This document shows positions 1,971-63,121 of a DNA stretch of 64,000 nt, one piece after another. Position 1 is the stretch's first letter. The number at the start of each line of letters is the position of its first letter. The DNA lies in IMG/VR virus record IMGVR_UViG_3300001528_000580, positions 160,001 through 224,000 of that record. One strand, written 5' to 3'. Both the position numbers and the translations under genes were made by a program. The notes under the pieces are model-generated. The model ran no database searches. It was given only the letters and a program-made list of their open reading frames with translations, and was not told the DNA's origin. The stretch is from a virus (taxonomy: Duplodnaviria > Caudoviricetes).

Positions 1971-3158
1971 TTATTTTCCCTTAATATTATATACTTCCTT
2001 CATAATATCAACAACATCAACAGTTGGTTCAATAAATTTAATAATCTCATCTTTGTTTTTATAAGCATCAGGAGCTTCATCAAGAGCATAATCAATAGAA
2101 GTTGTAAAAACACCATGTGCTTGCATGTCCTTTTTAACTTCTTCCAAATTAAGTTCTTTCTTGGCTTTTGAACGGCTCATTATTCTTCCTGCACCATGTG
2201 GAGCAGACCAATTGTATTCTTCATTTCCTTTGCCTGTACAAAGAGAAATTCCATCTCTCATATTGAATGGAATAAGAACCTTTTCTCCTTCTTTTGCAGA
2301 AATAGCGCCCTTACGAACAATCATATTGTCCAAATCAATATAATTATGTAAGGTAGTAATATATTCACTATATTCAAATTTTTTATTGTCAGAAAAGTTT
2401 TCACAAAGAAATCTTCCGATTTTATCAAAAAGCAAACGGTGATTTACTTCTGAAAATATTTGACAAGCATTTACACATGTCAGATATCTATCAAAATACT
2501 TAGAATTTTTATCTAAATATTTCAAATCTCTTTCACATCTATCATCACAATATTCTTCCGCTTTATTTTGATAAATATTTGCAACAACCAATCCAAAATT
2601 TCTTGAACCACAATGTAAACTAAGCCAATATTTTCCATCTTTATCTTGATTAATAGCTATGAAATGATTTCCAGATCCAATTGAAAATAATTGATTGATA
2701 ATATCAACTTTCATTTCATATTCTGCTTTTCTATCTTCTGAGATTAATTTTTTTGCATCTTCAAAAGCATTTAATTCACTTTTAAGAATTAAAGATTTTA
2801 AATCTTTTGAAATTCCATCTTTAACATATCCACCTGCTCCAAGTGGAACAGTTTGTCTGATCCATTTGTCAACTTGTGCAAAATCAATATTGTCAATTGT
2901 GTCTAATTTCATTGAACTAATTCTACAACCAATATCAACACCAACAACATTAGGACAAACTCTTGGATTATTTTTATCCAATCTTTGTGTAAATCCAATG
3001 ACTGAACCTTTTCCCTCATGATAATCAGCCATAATCCTAACTGTTGAATTTTCAGTTATTCCAGATGACATAATATGATATAGATGAGCAATAGCAAGTT
3101 CATCTCTCATATCAGTCATTATTTTTGCTACACCATTTTTCCCAATTACTTCAATCAT
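1971..3158 (-). CDS. rtcB: RtcB RNA ligase (3'-P/2',3'-cP to 5'-OH)
   Basis: MADYH, VGVDIGC, GSGNHF, LHCGSR, HN, RKGA, SAPHGAGR and DEAPDAYK motifs. Confidence 0.95.
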   Translation of the reverse strand: MIEVIGKNGVAKIMTDMRDELAIAHLYHIMSSGITENSTVRIMADYHEGKGSVIGFTQRLDKNNPRVCPNVVGVDIGCRISSMKLDTIDNIDFAQVDKWIRQTVPLGAGGYVKDGISKDLKSLILKSELNAFEDAKKLISEDRKAEYEMKVDIINQLFSIGSGNHFIAINQDKDGKYWLSLHCGSRNFGLVVANIYQNKAEEYCDDRCERDLKYLDKNSKYFDRYLTCVNACQIFSEVNHRLLFDKIGRFLCENFSDNKKFEYSEYITTLHNYIDLDNMIVRKGAISAKEGEKVLIPFNMRDGISLCTGKGNEEYNWSAPHGAGRIMSRSKAKKELNLEEVKKDMQAHGVFTTSIDYALDEAPDAYKNKDEIIKFIEPTVDVVDIMKEVYNIKGK

Positions 3159-4702: not shown

Positions 4703-5770
4703 TTATTTTTCTGCTAAAAGGTATTTGTTGTTAATACATTTAAAACTATTTCTACCATCAATACTTTTAAATACACAACCTTCTTTTCTATTACCTCTTT
4801 CAGTTTTACCATCAACAAATTTTAACATCTTTTCTAATGTATCAAGTTCATTAAAAACATCCATACTTGGATTAATAACTCTTACATGTTTCAAACCATA
4901 TTTTTTACAAATTTCATAGCGTTCATTTGGTGTAAAATACCTACGGTTATTAATGTCGAAAATATTGAATACAAAGAAATCATGTTCAGTGTAACGATCT
5001 CTATTTCCATTTATTCCAGGACCAACAAGTTCACCTTGAAAAGCGATTTCTTCACCATAGAATTTCATTTTTTCTGGTAATTCGTATTTATGAGCAACCG
5101 ACCAATAAATATTTTTATCTTTATCATAGTATTCTGTTTGTCTATTACAAACACCAACTGGATCATCTGGTCTATTTACAATAGAATGAAAACATGTCAT
5201 TGAAGCCCCATCATATTTATCAGTAACTTCCCACAATGTTCCTTTAAGTTCAGTGAAGAAATGAGCAAAATTTTGAATACGTTCTTCATCTGTTTTATTT
5301 ACAAATGAAGGAAATGATGCTTTAAATTCACCGTCAAGAGTTATTTTTCCAGTAATTTTATCCCATTCGAGAGCAACATCATCAAAATGTTTAACTCTCA
5401 AAATATTAGTTACATCATCGTCAATATTAAAATCTTTAAGTTCTGGGAACAATGCAATTGGAAGAATCAACCCTTGTGAAATAACTCCACGAAGGTTAAT
5501 TGTTCTAATTCTAATTGTTTCAAAAACATTTTTTTCTCCAATTGTCCAAGCACGTTTGCAACGCTCTTTAAGAAATTCATAGCGTTTGTCTTCAATAGGA
5601 AGCGCAGAATCAATTTCAAAGTAAACGGCAATATCATCCTTTTTAAAATTATCATTGATATGACAAACTACTTCCCAACCTTTACCACACATAGTGACTT
5701 TGACAAGAAAATCTGAATCTTTAATTTTTTCAACATTATTAATTTTCACAATACTGGCTAATTTTCTCAT
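4703..5770 (-). CDS. ATP-dependent RNA ligase, DRB0094/Rnl5 family
   Basis: N-terminal MRKLASI...YFEIDS...LRGVISQGL domain; KTDEERIQN; motif I KYDG; QGELVGPGI; EGCVFK; FKCIN. Confidence 0.9.
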   Translation of the reverse strand: MRKLASIVKINNVEKIKDSDFLVKVTMCGKGWEVVCHINDNFKKDDIAVYFEIDSALPIEDKRYEFLKERCKRAWTIGEKNVFETIRIRTINLRGVISQGLILPIALFPELKDFNIDDDVTNILRVKHFDDVALEWDKITGKITLDGEFKASFPSFVNKTDEERIQNFAHFFTELKGTLWEVTDKYDGASMTCFHSIVNRPDDPVGVCNRQTEYYDKDKNIYWSVAHKYELPEKMKFYGEEIAFQGELVGPGINGNRDRYTEHDFFVFNIFDINNRRYFTPNERYEICKKYGLKHVRVINPSMDVFNELDTLEKMLKFVDGKTERGNRKEGCVFKSIDGRNSFKCINNKYLLAEK

Positions 5771-41232: not shown

Positions 41233-41871
41233 ATGAGAGATAGCAAGAGTTATAGCAAGGCAGGAAAATTAGGATATATAGCTTCATTAGAAAAAAGAAA
41301 AATACAATATCAAAAAAGGATTGATGAGTATAATAAAAATCCTAATAAATGTCATTTTTGTAGTAAAAAATTTGATTAAGAACATAGACATTTAAAGTTT
41401 TGCAATCATTCTTGTTCTGCTTCTTTTAATAACAAAAGTGATAAAAGAATAAAAAGAGAAATATTTTTTTGTTTATTTTGTAATAAAAAGTTAAATGGTA
41501 AACAAAAAAAATTTTGTTCTAATAGATGTCAACAGGATTATGAATGGAAATTAAGAAAAGAAAAAATAGAAAAAATTGGTGAATTTCCTCATTTTTCAAC
41601 TATGAATGAAACTAATTTAAGAATAGTAAAAAAATATTTATTAGAAAAATATGGAAATAAATGTCAAATATGTGGTAATACAGAATGGTTAGAAAATCCA
41701 ATACCATTAGTTTGTGATCATATAGATGGAAATCCAGAAAATCATAGTATAGAAAATTTCAGATTGGTTTGTGGTAATTGTGATATGTTATTGCCAACAT
41801 ATAAATCTCAAAACAAAGGTTTAGGTAGATTTTGGAGAAGAAAAAGATATAGAGAAAATAAAAGCTATTAA
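41233..41871 (+). pseudogene. Zn-finger HNH endonuclease interrupted by one in-frame TAA (41377-41379)
   Basis: AGGAG SD; frame continues after the stop (FCNHSC, FCSNRC) into CQICG...DHIDGN..N....N.RLVC.NC. Confidence 0.75.
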
Positions 41872-43918: not shown

Positions 43919-44026
43919 TTGACAAAATAAAAAAATGTGTTATATTAAGTCTTAGAAAGAAAAAAATTATTTTAAATATTTTTTATTAAAAATAATTTGA
44001 CTTTTTAATAATCAATGCTATATTAT
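43919..44026 (+). promoter_or_regulatory. tandem sigma70-like promoters of RNA cluster 2
   Basis: TTGACA(43919)..TATATT(43941) and TTGACT(43997)..TGC-TATATT(44019). Confidence 0.7.
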
Positions 44027-44073: not shown

Positions 44074-44191
44074 ACGATGTGCTATAAAAAGTTTCAACGT
44101 AGTTGATTATAAGTTCGATTCTTATTATTCCACCAAAAATTAGGAATATTGTTGGCGATTGGTAAGCCAAACTTTTTATGTTATTCATCGT
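44074..44191 (+). ncRNA. scaffolded tRNA-mimic RNA 1 (permuted T-acceptor-D, Y-RNA/YrlA-like layout)
   Basis: ACGATG/CATCGT and ATAAAAAGTTT/AAACTTTTTAT closing stems; ATAAG-TTCGATT-CTTAT; TATTCC-ACCA..GGAATA; TTGGC-GATTGGTAA-GCCAA. Confidence 0.75.
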
Positions 44192-44205
44192 ATTTTATAT
44201 TTTTT

Positions 44206-44333
44206 ATGAGGTGGTTTGAAAAAGTTTCAACGTAAATCAATGGTTAGATTAATTTGCTGATAACAAATATGCTGTTGGTTCGATTCCAACCGTTTTTAGA
44301 TCGTAAGATCAGGCTTTTTCTAGTATTCCTCAT
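44206..44333 (+). ncRNA. scaffolded tRNA-mimic RNA 2 (Ile-GAU cloverleaf, 4-bp acceptor, no CCA)
   Basis: ATGAGG/CCTCAT and GAAAAAGTTT/AGGCTTTTTC stems; D arm AATC/GATT; ATTTG-CTGATAA-CAAAT; GTTGG-TTCGATT-CCAAC. Confidence 0.75.
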
Positions 44334-44346
44334 TTTATAAGTTTTT

Positions 44347-44453
44347 TTGAGGTGTTTGGTAAACTTTCAACGTATATTGGCTATACATTTGTCTGCAAAA
44401 CAAACTAAGTGGTTCGAGTCCACATTTAAAGGAGTTTTCCGCTTATTCCTCAA
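44347..44453 (+). ncRNA. scaffolded tRNA-mimic RNA 3 (Cys-GCA D/anticodon/T arms, no acceptor)
   Basis: TTGAGG/CCTCAA and GGTAAACTTT/GGAGTTTTCC stems; GTAT/ATAC; TTTGT-CTGCAAA-ACAAA; GTGG-TTCGAGT-CCAC. Confidence 0.75.
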
Positions 44454-44548: not shown

Positions 44549-44579
44549 AGCAGTATCATTAAAATGATACTGCTTTTTT
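44549..44579 (+). terminator. intrinsic terminator
   Basis: AGCAGTATCATT-AA-AATGATACTGCT plus T run. Confidence 0.85.
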
Positions 44580-44656
44580 ATTTAACAATATTAATTTGAT
44601 TTTTTATTTTTTTTATGTTATATTATTTAACAATAAAATTAAATGGAGTTTATAAC

Positions 44657-46532: not shown

Positions 46533-47081
46533 ATGGATTTAACCGAAAAATCAAAAAAATTAGCTTATATACTAAGACATAAACCAGAATCAGCTAATTT
46601 AAAACTTAAAAAAGATGGATATGTAAGCGTATCTGAACTTGTTTCAAATACAGATATTACTTTTGAAGAATTAGAATCGATTGTTTCTAATGATAAAAAA
46701 GGACGTTATAAATTTAATGATGATAAAACACTTGTAAGAGCAAATCAAGGACATAGCATTAGTGTTGATATTTCATTTAGAGAATTACCACCACCAATAC
46801 CATTATTTCATGGAACAAGTGAACATTTATTTAAATTGATTAAACAAAGTGGTAAAATTAAAAAAATGAGCAGAAATTATGTTCATTTATCTAAAGATGT
46901 TGAAACAGCAAAGAATGTAGGATCAAGGCATAAGTCAAACAGAAATGAAAAATTGATTATCATTACTATAGATACAAAGAAAATGTATAGTGATGGTATT
47001 AAATTTTTTGTATCTGATAATGGAGTTTGGTTAACAGATGATATTAATTCAAAATATTTTTTAGATATATTGGAATTTTAA
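46533..47081 (+). CDS. kptA: RNA 2'-phosphotransferase (Tpt1/KptA)
   Basis: LRH.P, D.K.RY, RANQGHS, LFHGT, R.YVHLS, N.VWL. Confidence 0.95.
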   Translation: MDLTEKSKKLAYILRHKPESANLKLKKDGYVSVSELVSNTDITFEELESIVSNDKKGRYKFNDDKTLVRANQGHSISVDISFRELPPPIPLFHGTSEHLFKLIKQSGKIKKMSRNYVHLSKDVETAKNVGSRHKSNRNEKLIIITIDTKKMYSDGIKFFVSDNGVWLTDDINSKYFLDILEF

Positions 47082-53477: not shown

Positions 53478-53595
53478 TTTTTATTAATTTTTTGAATATT
53501 TTTCATATGGTAGCTGATAAATTCATTTTGGTTATGCCGTTCTAAATAACCAAATAATATGAATATCAGTGTTAACAAAAAAACAAAGGAGCCAT

Positions 53596-54906
53596 ATGAA
53601 TTACGTAATTGATACAAGTACTATTTTGTATAACTGGAATTCTTTAAGATCTTTCCCAAATGAAAATATTATAATACCTTATCAGGTTTTAAATGATTTG
53701 GATAGATTTAAAACAGATTTCGGTGAAGTTGGAGATAATGCAAGAGCGGCATGTAATTTTATTTGTAAATATGTTAATTCAAGTGAAAAGTTTACATTTA
53801 AAAAAATCTTCAAACTTGATAACGGAAGTAGATTGTTTTTATGGGAACCAGTAGAAGGAGTTGATTCAGACGGAAAAATTCTTAATACAGTAAAAAGTGT
53901 ACAAGAAAGATATCCAAAAGAAGAAATAATCCTAGTAACCAAGAAAACAAGTTTTAGATTATTGGCTCATGGTCAAAAAATTCAGTCAATTGATTTTAAC
54001 GATGTAGGAGAATTTGAGGATAAATCAGGTTGGCAATATGTTGAATTTAGTGCTGATGATTTTTCAAGAGTAAATACAACTATTGGATCTTTATATTATG
54101 ATGAAAAATTTAAAGATTTTGTAAAAAATAGTTATATTGTTCCTACCTGTGAAGGTAAGCCATACGAAGGAGTTGTTTATCGAGTTTTAGGAGATGGTCA
54201 TTTAAAAGTAATTGATAGAAAACCACATTCTTGTGGTATTGTTCCTAAAAATCTTGAGCAAATGATGTCATTTGACTTATTGATGAATGATTCTGTTCCG
54301 TTGTGTGCTCTTGTTGCAAAAGCTGGAACTGGAAAAACATTAATGGCTATTGCCAGCGCATTGCAAAAAGTTCTTGTAGAGAAAGAATATAGAAAATTAG
54401 TTATTACAAGACCAGTAGTACCAATTGGTAGAGATATTGGATTTTTACCAGGTGATATGGAAGATAAAATGGAACAATGGCTATTACCATTTTGGAATAA
54501 CATTGAATATATTAGTTCAATAAATAATGACGCAGGAAAAAGAAAATTTTCTAAGGAAAAATTAAATATGCTTCTTGACAAAGAAGCAAGAAAAGAATTA
54601 ATACAGATATTACCAATTACTTATATGAGAGGTAGTAGTATATCAAATGCTTATATTATTATAGATGAAGCTCAAAATACTACACCAAATGAAATGAAAA
54701 CTATTATTACTCGTATTGGAGAAGGAAGTAAATTAGTTTTAACAGGTGATATTGAACAAATAGACGATAGATTTCTTAGTAAAGAATGCAATGGATTAAC
54801 TATGGCAGTTCAGAAATTTTATGGTAAAGATTTATTTGGATTTGTTAAGTTAGAAAAATCTGAAAGATCTCCATTATCTGAATTAGCGAATAGTATTTTG
54901 TTTTAA
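53596..54906 (+). CDS. phoH: PhoH-family ATPase with N-terminal PIN domain
   Basis: YVIDTS PIN motif; AGTGKT, IGFLPG, YMRGSS, IIDEAQN, TRIGEGSK, GD..QID; AGGAG SD before 53596. Confidence 0.92.
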   Translation: MNYVIDTSTILYNWNSLRSFPNENIIIPYQVLNDLDRFKTDFGEVGDNARAACNFICKYVNSSEKFTFKKIFKLDNGSRLFLWEPVEGVDSDGKILNTVKSVQERYPKEEIILVTKKTSFRLLAHGQKIQSIDFNDVGEFEDKSGWQYVEFSADDFSRVNTTIGSLYYDEKFKDFVKNSYIVPTCEGKPYEGVVYRVLGDGHLKVIDRKPHSCGIVPKNLEQMMSFDLLMNDSVPLCALVAKAGTGKTLMAIASALQKVLVEKEYRKLVITRPVVPIGRDIGFLPGDMEDKMEQWLLPFWNNIEYISSINNDAGKRKFSKEKLNMLLDKEARKELIQILPITYMRGSSISNAYIIIDEAQNTTPNEMKTIITRIGEGSKLVLTGDIEQIDDRFLSKECNGLTMAVQKFYGKDLFGFVKLEKSERSPLSELANSILF

Positions 54907-58422: not shown

Positions 58423-58848
58423 GGGGTTGTATAGGATTCGACTGATACGTTGGATTTACTTGTGCATGTAGTAGTTGATCAGTTGGCTACTTTAAAAGCT
58501 GATCAAAAAATAATTGTCGAAGATAATTATGCTCTTGCCGCTTAATTAAAGTGGCACACGAAACTGATGATGCTAATAGTCAGGAGTATGTGAAATTATT
58601 AGCTTTGTTCGGTAACTGAAAGTCTGTTCCTAAGTTGATGAATACCGACAAGATGAACGTAGGAACCTCTGATGCTAAGAATTCTGAAATTTCATAGACT
58701 TAGCAGAAAAAAGATATGAATATTCTTGTCATAGAAGAAAAACAATGATATTCTTGTCAAGAGAATTAAAACATTTGGCTAAACATGTGAATGAACAATA
58801 ATGAAAATTTATCAACACGGGAGGTTCAATTCCTCCCCAGCTCCACCA
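58423..58848 (+). ncRNA. ssrA: tmRNA
   Basis: GGGGTTG..GGATTCGAC 5' end; tag ORF (A)VEDNYALAA* at 58516-58545; T arm and CAGCTCCACCA 3' end with G3-U70. Confidence 0.95.
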
Positions 58849-62164: not shown

Positions 62165-63121
62165 ATGAATATGAAGCAATTTGATGAGTTGATGAAGGAA
62201 TGTACTGGAAAGAATGTATTTGTAGGATTTTCTGGTGGTGCTGATAGCACTATGGTATTGCTTATTGCAAATCATTTTAAGAAAATTTATAATTTTAATA
62301 TTAAAGCAGTTCATTTTGAACATGGATTGCGAGGCAATGAAGCATTAGGTGATGCAAAGCATTGTGTTGATTTTTGCAACGATATGAACATTGACATTGA
62401 AGTTGTTCATCTTAATTTGAAAAATTCTTCACAAATTGAAGGAATTGCTAGACAAGCTCGTCTAAATTGGTGGAATGATAATTGTGATGAAAACTCTGTT
62501 GTAATGCTTGGTCATCATCTTGATGATCAAATTGAAAACTTTTTGATTAGAATGTCAAGAGGTTCAAATATTACAGGTTTAATCGGTATTCGTTCTATTT
62601 CTAAAATGAATAAGTTTACTATTATTAGACCATTGCTGGAAACAAGTAAAAAAGATATTGAAAAATATCTCACAGATGAAAGTTTTGATTGGGTAATTGA
62701 TAATACAAATAATGATTGTATCTGCCAACGTAACTATATTAGGAATAAGATTTTACCAAAATGGTATAAACAACATGGATTTATCTATGGTGGAATTAAG
62801 CAAAGTTTGAATACTATCAGTGAAGATGCTGATTTTATTGAAACAGAAGTTAAAAATAAATTTGATGAAATCAAAAATATGGATGGAATTTCTATTAACT
62901 TCTGGAAATCGCTTCATAGCGCCATTAGGGTTCGATTGTTGAGAATGTGGGTAAATACTGTCGTTCCTGAATATGTCCCCTCTAAAGCGTTTGTAGGGCA
63001 GTTTAACAACATGTGTGAATCGTTTAACAACACCGACCACAAACATTTGAAAATTAAAGGGAAATACGAGATTTTATTTAAGGCATACAAAACATATATT
63101 TTAAATTGTGAAGGAAATTGA
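62165..63121 (+). CDS. tilS: tRNA(Ile)-lysidine synthetase
   Basis: SGGADS PP-loop, H.EHGLR, E..AR..R, GHH.DDQ.E, RPLL, D.TN, RN.IR. Confidence 0.9.
   Translation: MNMKQFDELMKECTGKNVFVGFSGGADSTMVLLIANHFKKIYNFNIKAVHFEHGLRGNEALGDAKHCVDFCNDMNIDIEVVHLNLKNSSQIEGIARQARLNWWNDNCDENSVVMLGHHLDDQIENFLIRMSRGSNITGLIGIRSISKMNKFTIIRPLLETSKKDIEKYLTDESFDWVIDNTNNDCICQRNYIRNKILPKWYKQHGFIYGGIKQSLNTISEDADFIETEVKNKFDEIKNMDGISINFWKSLHSAIRVRLLRMWVNTVVPEYVPSKAFVGQFNNMCESFNNTDHKHLKIKGKYEILFKAYKTYILNCEGN

What the first reader, a model, noticed from the sequence alone, without database searches (positions are those of the whole stretch)
44074..44453. Tandem array of three ncRNAs sharing one scaffold, each with a different tRNA-mimic cargo
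Seen: three units (44074-44191, 44206-44333, 44347-44453) follow 5'-GA(T/G)GTG-N-[10-11 bp stem ending TTT]CAACGTA-cargo-[stem']-N-TATTC(A/C)TC-3'. The outer stem covaries (GATG/CATC vs GAGG/CCTC). The inner stem changes sequence but keeps pairing. TTTCAACGTA and the TG/TATT internal loop are invariant, as expected for a protein-binding handle. The cargoes are different tRNA parts, and none has a free CCA end. The array lies between tandem promoters and tRNA-Gln plus a terminator, so it should be co-transcribed. Established: bacterial Y RNAs (YrlA) join a Ro60-binding stem to a tRNA-like module and often sit with rtcB. Inference: a modular handle-plus-tRNA-mimic system, either a divergent Y-RNA family or a new class, acting as decoys or adaptors for tRNA-binding enzymes. 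I do not see the usual Ro-binding consensus, and no Ro60/TROVE gene is in this window.
Basis: partly seen in the sequence, partly recalled or inferred. Interest (0 to 1): 0.92.

Follow-up and report, generated by a model that had tools for sequence, protein, structure and literature searches.

The report
Phage Y RNAs carrying tRNA mimics
The three tandem RNAs are real and are most likely Y RNAs, partner RNAs of the ring protein Ro60 (which this 441-kb phage also encodes far from the window), each mounting a different tRNA look-alike on one conserved stem; this is a new variant of a known RNA-repair particle, not a new class.

Summary
Observation confirmed. Units 44074-44191, 44206-44333 and 44347-44453 share a two-helix handle (P1, a UG/UAUU internal loop, P2, then UUUCAACGUA). 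Seven of its 18 pairs show compensatory changes. The units are co-transcribed with tRNA-Gln from two strong promoters.

A covariance model found two more units elsewhere in the genome (88487-88574 and 90100-90249).

The genome encodes a divergent Ro60 at 340290-341834(-). It scores below Pfam cut-offs but matches solved Ro60 structures by sequence (E 1e-8) and by predicted fold (TM 0.7).

The same handle lies just upstream of Ro60 homologues, on the Ro60 strand, in all 20 related loci that have upstream sequence (Lentisphaeria, Victivallaceae, Kiritimatiellae MAGs and two viral contigs). One of these loci is a classic rtcR / Y RNAs / rsr-rtcA-rtcB operon whose units give sub-threshold Rfam YrlA hits.

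So these are divergent YrlA-type Y RNAs. New here:
- a handle subtype that Rfam misses;
- cargoes in several tRNA topologies on one handle;
- genuine anticodon-type loops (Ile, Cys, Lys), which published YrlA lacks;
- RNA genes placed far from the Ro60 gene.

Ro60 binding and the decoy or adaptor role are inferred, not shown. This scan has noted similar handle-plus-tRNA-mimic arrays on other DNA.

The parts
43919..43946 (+). Promoter 1 of the RNA operon (TTGACA, 16 nt spacer, TATATT, with TG extension)
   Evidence: Consensus scan, 11 of 12 matches.
43997..44024 (+). Promoter 2 (TTGACT, 16 nt spacer, TATATT, with TG extension)
   Evidence: Consensus scan, 10 of 12 matches.
44074..44191 (+). Unit 1, a Y RNA with YrlA topology. 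Handle: P1 44074-44079 / 44186-44191; P2 44083-44094 / 44169-44180. Cargo: V hairpin, T arm (~44109-44125), closed acceptor-like stem with ACCA in its loop (~44126-44148), D arm (~44153-44169). No anticodon arm.
   Evidence: Fold; pair counts; R2 62.5 bits, E 9e-13. The T arm and acceptor 3' strand resemble the phage tRNA-Ala.
44206..44333 (+). Unit 2. Handle: P1 44206-44211 / 44328-44333; P2 44216-44227 / 44311-44322. Cargo: an unpermuted tRNA body (D arm, anticodon arm with loop CUGAUAA = Ile GAU, T arm) closed by a 4-bp AACG/CGUU stem, plus an extra hairpin at 44299-44310.
   Evidence: Rfam tRNA 50.1 bits, model positions 4-67 only; R2 59.3 bits. Acceptor positions 1-3 cannot pair (sequence).
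44347..44453 (+). Unit 3. Handle: P1 44347-44352 / 44448-44453; P2 44356-44367 / 44431-44442. Cargo: D arm, anticodon arm (loop CUGCAAA = Cys GCA) and a 4-bp T arm. No acceptor stem.
   Evidence: Rfam tRNA 27.3 bits, positions 10-63; R2 64.8 bits. The anticodon stem is identical to that of a phage tRNA-Ile(GAU).
44467..44540 (+). Canonical tRNA-Gln(UUG) with encoded CCA, co-transcribed with the three units
   Evidence: ARAGORN; Rfam 57.8 bits, full model.
44549..44584 (+). Intrinsic terminator (11-bp stem followed by a U run) that ends the operon
   Evidence: Terminator scan.

Best explanation
The three units, together with two more at genome 88487-88574 and 90100-90249, are Y RNAs of a divergent YrlA-type lineage.

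Their 5' and 3' ends pair into a conserved handle: P1, an internal loop with 5' UG and 3' (Y)AUU, P2, then single-stranded UUCAAC. This handle is the docking module for Ro60. The phage encodes its own Ro60 at genome 340290-341834(-), about 47% identical to Ro60 of Lentisphaeria and Victivallaceae, the likely host lineage.

The variable inner part is the effector module. It is a tRNA mimic in one of several topologies:
- permuted T arm, closed acceptor, D arm (unit 1);
- D arm, anticodon arm, T arm (units 2 and 3);
- a bare anticodon-type hairpin (unit 4);
- a permuted body with a possible extra anticodon-type hairpin (unit 5).

Units 1-3 are transcribed with tRNA-Gln from two strong promoters and presumably cut out by tRNA-processing enzymes.

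Inferred: the resulting particles belong to the phage's RNA-damage toolkit (RtcB, a DraRnl-type ligase, Tpt1, PIN-PhoH, tmRNA). The tRNA-like modules either tether Ro60 to tRNA-binding proteins or compete with real tRNAs for them, for example for host anticodon nucleases.

Shown: the structure, its covariation, the family link to Ro60 genes, and the presence of Ro60 in this genome. Not shown: physical binding, processing, or any effect on tRNA-binding enzymes.
For: - Handle structure: compensatory changes among the three units and among 16 family members. In the latter, 90% of cells are paired, 15 of 18 pairs change on both sides, and slid controls give 45-55%.
- Model R2 finds exactly five copies in the 441-kb genome (E 2e-13 to 4e-10) and nothing else at E<=1.
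- Phage Ro60: a weak collinear TROVE match. Pfam vWA_Ro60 27.2 bits and TROVE 19.4 bits. phmmer against solved Ro60 and Rsr structures gives E 1e-8 over about 414 residues. The AlphaFold model (pLDDT 84) has Ro60 structures as its top 12 hits, TM 0.62-0.73.
- Linkage: in 24 loci fetched through Ro60 homologues, R2 gives 55 hits at E<=0.01, all on the Ro60 strand, in 21 loci. The three loci without a hit have 137 nt or less upstream of the gene. Most units end 47-591 nt before the Ro60 start.
- In four whole bacterial genomes (1.9-7.6 Mb), the only hits are at the Ro60 locus.
- In a sample of 121 genomes of that phylum, hits occur only in genomes with this Ro60 subfamily.
- Locus L287 reads rtcR, three units, rsr, rtcA, rtcB. 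Its units hit Rfam YrlA at 50.8, 39.2 and 26.5 bits, with P1 and the UG aligned to YrlA's P1 and AUG loop.
- Phage unit 5 hits YrlA at 30.6 bits.
- Published: Y RNAs are modular, with a Ro60-binding stem plus an effector module that is tRNA-like in YrlA (PMC4201824; doi 10.1101/312249).
Against: - No experiment or RNA-seq shows that these RNAs exist as discrete species or bind Ro60.
- In this phage the RNA genes lie 136-250 kb from the Ro60 gene, unlike the adjacency that defines YrlA loci.
- Units 1-3 give no YrlA hit even at E<=10. No family member reaches Rfam's gathering score of 69 bits.
- The published Ro-binding motif GNCGAAN0-1G is not present literally.
- Alignment A5 was fitted to the model, so its pair counts lean towards the structure.
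- E-values from R1 and R2 are rough.
Confidence: 0.83

Rival explanations
1. The handle RNAs form a separate class that binds some other, unidentified protein. Their position next to Ro60 genes in bacteria reflects shared regulation within rtc RNA-repair operons, not direct binding.
For: In the phage, no unit is near the Ro60 gene. The literal Ro-binding motif is absent (PMC4201824 compared). Rfam YrlA scores are below the cut-off.
Against: Strand-specific placement 50-600 nt upstream of Ro60 in every informative locus is exactly the criterion used to define YrlA (PMC4201824). The handle architecture aligns with YrlA's Ro60-binding module. No TerD or DUF2828 candidate partner exists in the genome. 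Flanking ORFs have no recognisable family.
Confidence: 0.08
2. The units are precursors of working tRNAs (permuted or with extended ends). The handle would be cut off and the ends rejoined by the phage's RtcB or RNA ligase plus Tpt1, as with the permuted tRNA genes of red algae.
For: Unit 1 is a permuted tRNA body with an internal ACCA. RtcB, an RNA ligase and Tpt1 are all encoded in the window.
Against: Removing the handle from unit 1 leaves no anticodon loop. P2 is 11 bp where an anticodon stem is 5 bp. Units 2 and 3 cannot form acceptor pairs 1-3 or have no acceptor stem at all. Unit 4 is only a hairpin. There is no bulge-helix-bulge motif. The genome already has regular tRNA-Ile(GAU), Cys and Lys genes with encoded CCA. 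The same handle flanks cargoes with no tRNA features beside bacterial Ro60 genes.
Confidence: 0.04
3. The units are decaying tRNA genes or duplication debris. The flanking stems would be generic RNase III-type processing helices with no specific partner.
For: They lie in a tRNA operon. The cargoes resemble phage tRNAs.
Against: Paired positions vary with compensation while the unpaired motifs stay invariant. The handle is conserved between a 25%-GC phage and 40-60%-GC bacteria. The 28 other regular tRNA genes of the phage have no such handle (R2 finds only five copies).
Confidence: 0.03

Closest known systems
YrlA-type bacterial and phage Y RNAs bound by Ro60/Rsr (Rfam RF02553; Chen et al. [quoted passage not shown]
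   Same: - A closing stem formed by the two RNA ends, with an internal loop carrying a conserved UG.
- A second helix, then a conserved single-stranded element, then a tRNA-like module.
- Units 1 and 5 have the YrlA order V, T arm, closed acceptor, D arm.
- Relatives lie on the Ro60 strand just upstream of rsr in an rtcR / rsr-rtcA-rtcB operon.
- Several Y RNAs occur per locus.
   Different: - The handle sequence differs: GAGGUG ... UUCAAC ... UAUUCCUC in place of GNCGAAN0-1G.
- Every member scores below Rfam's cut-off (at most 51 bits against 69).
- Units 2-4 carry anticodon-type stem-loops or unpermuted tRNA bodies, whereas YrlA lacks an anticodon loop.
- In the phage the RNA genes are scattered in tRNA islands 136-250 kb from the Ro60 gene.
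Deinococcus radiodurans Yrn1, the Y RNA that tethers Rsr to PNPase
   Same: As described in PMC4201824, Yrn1 has D-like and T-like arms in the tRNA order, with an anticodon-arm-like stem-loop between them and the Ro60 stem at the acceptor side. Units 2 and 3 have the same layout.
   Different: The Yrn1 loop has 6 nt. Here the loops are canonical 7-nt CUNNNAA loops. The handle sequence also differs. The resemblance rests on the published description and was not tested with a model.
Circularly permuted tRNA genes of Cyanidioschyzon merolae
   Same: In unit 1, and probably unit 5, the 3' half of a tRNA body precedes the 5' half.
   Different: There is no bulge-helix-bulge junction, no reconstituted anticodon loop and no evidence of circular intermediates. 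The acceptor end is sealed rather than processed.

Membership tests
YrlA-type Y RNA (Rfam RF02553) | The 5' and 3' ends pair into a long stem with an internal loop (the Ro60-binding module) | tested here: met
   P1 plus P2 is 94% paired with 7 of 18 compensatory pairs in the three units. In 16 family members it is 90% paired with 15 of 18.
YrlA-type Y RNA (Rfam RF02553) | A Ro60 (TROVE plus vWA) gene is present in the same genome | tested here: met
   A 514-aa ORF at genome 340290-341834(-). PDB Ro60 hits at E 1e-8; Ro60 fold at TM about 0.7.
YrlA-type Y RNA (Rfam RF02553) | Encoded within about 4 kb of Ro60 on the same strand (criterion of Chen et al. 2014) | tested here: not met
   The phage units lie 136-250 kb from the Ro60 gene, which is on the opposite strand. 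The criterion is met by the same handle in 20 of 20 related loci that have upstream sequence.
YrlA-type Y RNA (Rfam RF02553) | Score at or above Rfam's gathering threshold (69 bits) | tested here: not met
   Units 1-3 give no hit at E<=10. Unit 5 scores 30.6 bits. Relatives score 26.5-50.8 bits.
YrlA-type Y RNA (Rfam RF02553) | 5' motif GNCGAAN0-1G (the proposed Rsr contact) | tested here: not met
   The 5' strand reads (N)GAKGUG. Only the terminal UG aligns with YrlA's conserved AUG.
YrlA-type Y RNA (Rfam RF02553) | tRNA-like module in the order T arm, closed acceptor stem, D arm, without an anticodon loop | tested here: inconclusive
   Met by unit 1 and by unit 5 in its YrlA-model reading. 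Not met by units 2-4, which carry D arm, anticodon arm, T arm, or only an anticodon-type hairpin.
YrlA-type Y RNA (Rfam RF02553) | Physical binding to Ro60 | not testable with these tools
Ro60 / Rsr protein (the presumed partner) | HEAT-repeat TROVE ring followed by a vWA domain | tested here: met
   Pfam hits lie just below the cut-offs. phmmer against 9nen, 1yvp and 2nvo. Model pLDDT 83.6; the top 12 PDB matches are all Ro60.
Canonical tRNA gene | 7-bp acceptor stem with a free 3' end (CCA) | tested here: not met
   The tRNA model matches only positions 4-67 (unit 2) and 10-63 (unit 3). In unit 1 the acceptor stem is closed by a loop.
Permuted tRNA gene (spliced type) | Bulge-helix-bulge junction and an anticodon loop restored after joining | tested here: not met
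   The junction is an 11-bp helix, one internal loop and a 6-bp helix. No 7-nt anticodon loop can form from it.

The most novel reading that the evidence does not exclude
The phage uses the Ro60 handle as a universal mount for a set of baits. These include genuine anticodon stem-loops (Ile GAU, Cys GCA, Lys UUU) and a tRNA body with a sealed acceptor end. Each bait would capture or compete for a different host tRNA-directed protein, such as an anticodon nuclease, and bring it, or the damaged tRNA, to Ro60 and the phage's repair enzymes. On this reading Y RNA cargo is swappable and is selected by the host's tRNA-targeting defences.
Probability: 0.25. Interest if true: 0.75.

Novelty: new variant of a known kind. 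Interest (0 to 1): 0.56.

Why it matters
What the tRNA-like module of bacterial Y RNAs binds has been an open question since 2014. This phage offers a natural series for testing it: one handle, one Ro60, and five different tRNA-derived modules, four with canonical anticodon-type loops. That makes the tether hypothesis and the decoy hypothesis (Hughes et al. 2020, PMC7790460) directly testable.

It also shows three further things:
- A Ro60 and Y RNA subfamily common in gut and rumen Lentisphaerota and Kiritimatiellia escapes current Pfam and Rfam thresholds.
- Y RNA genes need not lie beside Ro60.
- ARAGORN can miscall such units as tRNA genes. Here it did so twice: 'tRNA-Ile' at window 44225-44299 and at genome 90101-90172.

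Tried and rejected
- Exact-motif scans of public collections returned only chance or unrelated repeats. These were TTTCAACGTA plus TATTCMTC; the tandem motif in viral contigs and in metagenome contigs; and the five-unit consensus GAGGTG..AAASKTTCAACG.
- blastn of the region against phage records matched only tRNA-Gln.
- Neighbouring ORFs as bait: the 221-aa ORF and Tpt1 have no relatives in viral contigs. The 260-aa ORF has only near-identical homologues on short Logan contigs that could not be fetched.
- Flanking ORFs have no Pfam, PHROG or NCBIfam family that suggests RNA binding.
- Leads from earlier notes of this scan: TerD and DUF2828 are absent from this genome. Two large orphan ORFs (657 and 706 aa) gave nothing in the Atlas.
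- My first loose Python handle finder was too noisy in this 25%-GC genome. An apparent sixth copy at genome 29140 lies in coding sequence.
- TROVE at the default threshold gave no match. Only relaxing the E-value revealed the Ro60 gene.
No expression data and no contexts of the closest phage relatives could therefore be obtained.
- Complex prediction was not used because it does not take RNA.

Full report
**Observation**

The window is bases 160001-224000 of a complete 440,868-bp phage genome with terminal repeats and 25% GC.

Each unit has four handle elements:
- a 6-bp outer helix, P1;
- an internal loop with 5' UG and 3' UAUU;
- a 10-12-bp inner helix, P2, whose last pairs use the UUU of the invariant TTTCAACGTA;
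- the cargo.

On an unbiased MAFFT alignment the 18 handle pairs are 94% paired, and 7 of them change on both sides. Sliding the partners by 1-3 columns gives 41-56% pairing and 0-2 such pairs. U.G wobbles fix the strand as +.

The 10-mer occurs three times here, once more in a coding region elsewhere in the genome, and never on the minus strand.

Two strong sigma70-like promoters precede the array. A terminator follows tRNA-Gln.

**More members**

A covariance model of the three units (R1) found two further units outside the window. One is at genome 88487-88574, with its own promoter and a U run. The other is at 90100-90249, directly before tRNA-Leu.

A second model built from 16 family members (R2) finds exactly these five in the genome, at E 2e-13 to 4e-10, and nothing else at E<=1. 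ARAGORN's 'tRNA-Ile' at 90101-90172 is an artefact of unit 5, and the one at 44225-44299 is unit 2.

**The partner protein**

The default TROVE search was negative, and so were TerD and DUF2828. With a relaxed E-value, two weak collinear TROVE stretches fell in one 514-aa ORF at genome 340290-341834(-).

Evidence that this ORF is a Ro60:
- It scores just below Pfam's cut-offs for vWA_Ro60 (27.2 against 27.7 bits) and TROVE (19.4 against 23).
- It matches human and Xenopus Ro60 and Deinococcus Rsr in the PDB at E 1e-8 to 1e-7 over about 414 residues.
- An AlphaFold model built with 22 homologues (pLDDT 83.6, pTM 0.75) has Ro60 structures as its 12 best PDB matches, TM 0.62-0.73, including a Thermus phage Ro60.

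The protein has more than 1000 homologues. A large block at 42-48% identity comes from Lentisphaeria, Victivallaceae and Kiritimatiellae MAGs.

**Link between handle and Ro60**

Using the Ro60 alignment I fetched 22 bacterial loci and 2 viral contigs.

- R2 gives 55 hits at E<=0.01 in 21 of these 24 loci, every one on the Ro60 strand.
- The three loci without a hit have at most 137 nt upstream of the gene.
- An independent rule-based scan places most units 47-591 nt before the Ro60 start. It finds none on the opposite strand in 171 kb.
- In four whole bacterial genomes of 1.9-7.6 Mb, the only hits are at the Ro60 locus.
- In a sample of 121 genomes of that phylum, the close Ro60 subfamily is in three genomes, and those are the only three with handle hits.
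- Across 16 members the handle is 90% paired, 15 of 18 pairs change on both sides, and slid controls give 45-55%. This alignment is model-fitted, which is a caveat.

One Victivallaceae locus reads rtcR, three units, rsr, rtcA, rtcB. That is the arrangement of the Salmonella rsr-yrlBA-rtcBA operon (PMC7790460). Its three units hit Rfam YrlA at 50.8, 39.2 and 26.5 bits against a cut-off of 69. Our P1 and UG align with YrlA's P1 and conserved AUG loop. Units of a related viral contig and phage unit 5 (30.6 bits) also hit YrlA.

The family consensus is: P1 ending in G, UG, 1-4 nt, P2, UUCAAC, cargo, P2', a few nt, (Y)AUU, then P1' starting with C.

**Cargoes**

- Unit 1 has the YrlA order: V hairpin, T arm, closed acceptor with ACCA in the loop, D arm. 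Its T arm and acceptor 3' strand resemble the phage tRNA-Ala.
- Units 2 and 3 are unpermuted tRNA bodies whose acceptor end is replaced by the handle. Their anticodon loops are the canonical CUGAUAA and CUGCAAA.
- Unit 4 carries only a 4-bp hairpin with loop CUUUUAA, the loop of tRNA-Lys(UUU).
- Unit 5 is a permuted body (T arm, 8-bp closed acceptor, D arm). The stretch before its T arm can form either a CUGAUAA hairpin or, in the YrlA reading, a variable region closed by an ACG/CGU helix. I cannot decide between the two.

CUNNNAA loops on stems of at least 4 bp occur in 4 of 5 phage units and 4 of 28 distinct relatives. My rough expectation by chance is about 0.01 per unit.

Published YrlA lacks an anticodon loop (doi 10.1101/312249).

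**Mechanism**

Established: Y RNAs are modular. The terminal stem binds Ro60, and the other module binds an effector or gates the Ro60 cavity. In Deinococcus it tethers PNPase. The ligand of the YrlA tRNA-like module is unknown, and a role as a competitive inhibitor of an anticodon nuclease has been proposed (PMC4201824; doi 10.1101/312249; PMC7790460).

Shown here: these RNAs belong to a handle family tied to Ro60 genes, and the phage has a Ro60.

Inferred: they bind it. The cargoes then act as tRNA-shaped tethers or decoys within a phage RNA-damage toolkit encoded in the same window:
- RtcB at 1971-3158(-);
- a DraRnl-type ligase at 4703-5770(-);
- Tpt1 at 46533-47081;
- PIN-PhoH at 53569-54906;
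- tmRNA at 58423-58848;
- TilS at 62165-63121.

**Rivals**

- A non-Ro60 partner is possible but has no candidate.
- Spliced permuted tRNAs are excluded by the anatomy.
- Decay is excluded by covariation and by conservation of the handle between a 25%-GC phage and bacteria of about 40-60% GC.

**Novelty**

Ro60 with tRNA-like Y RNAs in bacteria and 22 phages is known, and jumbo phages with ROT/TROVE have been noted (PMC4201824; PMC7824862). New here are the handle subtype, several cargo topologies on one handle in one genome, anticodon-type loops, and separation of the RNA genes from the Ro60 gene.

Earlier notes of this scan describe comparable handle-plus-tRNA-mimic arrays on other DNA. They prompted my search for a hidden partner, but the evidence above is my own.

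**Limits**

E-values from my own models are rough. Host assignment is only suggested by the Ro60 similarity.

Noticed in passing
G000:C1:88487-88574 and 90100-90249 (outside the window; loci L258, L259): Two further handle units. Unit 4 has its own promoter and carries only a Lys(UUU)-type anticodon hairpin. Unit 5 is a permuted tRNA body just before tRNA-Leu. ARAGORN's tRNA-Ile at 90101-90172 is an artefact of unit 5.
   Followed up: yes
G000:C1:340290-341834 (-) (L277:4290-5834): A divergent Ro60 gene that Pfam thresholds miss. Its neighbours are an AAA_28 NTPase and two methyltransferases. No Y RNA lies next to it.
   Followed up: yes
G000:C1:88655-88730: Two Cas12a-type repeats (AATTTCTACTTATGTAGAT) form a mini-array behind a copy of the unit 4 promoter, 140 kb from the phage's Cas12a locus. 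A weak R1 hit (18 bits) at 88686-88849 has a handle-like 5' end that overlaps the second repeat.
   Followed up: no
G000:C1:88740-90080: About 1.3 kb with no ORF, higher GC than its surroundings and many hairpins, between unit 4 and unit 5. No Rfam family matches at E<=0.1. It may hold one or more large uncatalogued RNAs.
   Followed up: partly
window 1971-3158(-), 4703-5770(-), 46533-47081(+), 53569-54906(+), 62165-63121(+), 58423-58848(+): RNA-repair and tRNA genes are spread through the window: RtcB, a DraRnl-type RNA ligase, Tpt1/KptA, PIN-PhoH, TilS and a tmRNA.
   Followed up: partly
G000:C1:256421-256495: ARAGORN calls a tRNA with anticodon CUA (an amber suppressor). This hints at TAG recoding in part of the genome.
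   Followed up: no
L280:2026-2097, L300:5782-5852, L284:3067-3139: In relatives, ordinary tRNA genes are interleaved with the Y RNA units next to Ro60, just as tRNA-Gln and tRNA-Leu follow the phage units.
   Followed up: partly
L288:7201-7519, L283:8769-9036, L289:3956-4153: Some bacterial loci have a second cluster of two or three handle units about 3 kb downstream of Ro60. In L288 it lies between a Kinase-PolyVal gene and a cpYpsA (SLOG) gene.
   Followed up: partly
window 41602-41871; G000:C1:87713-88393, 90493-91467, 91542-92114: HNH_3 endonuclease genes flank both RNA islands that hold the units. This suggests the islands are hot spots for homing-endonuclease traffic.
   Followed up: no
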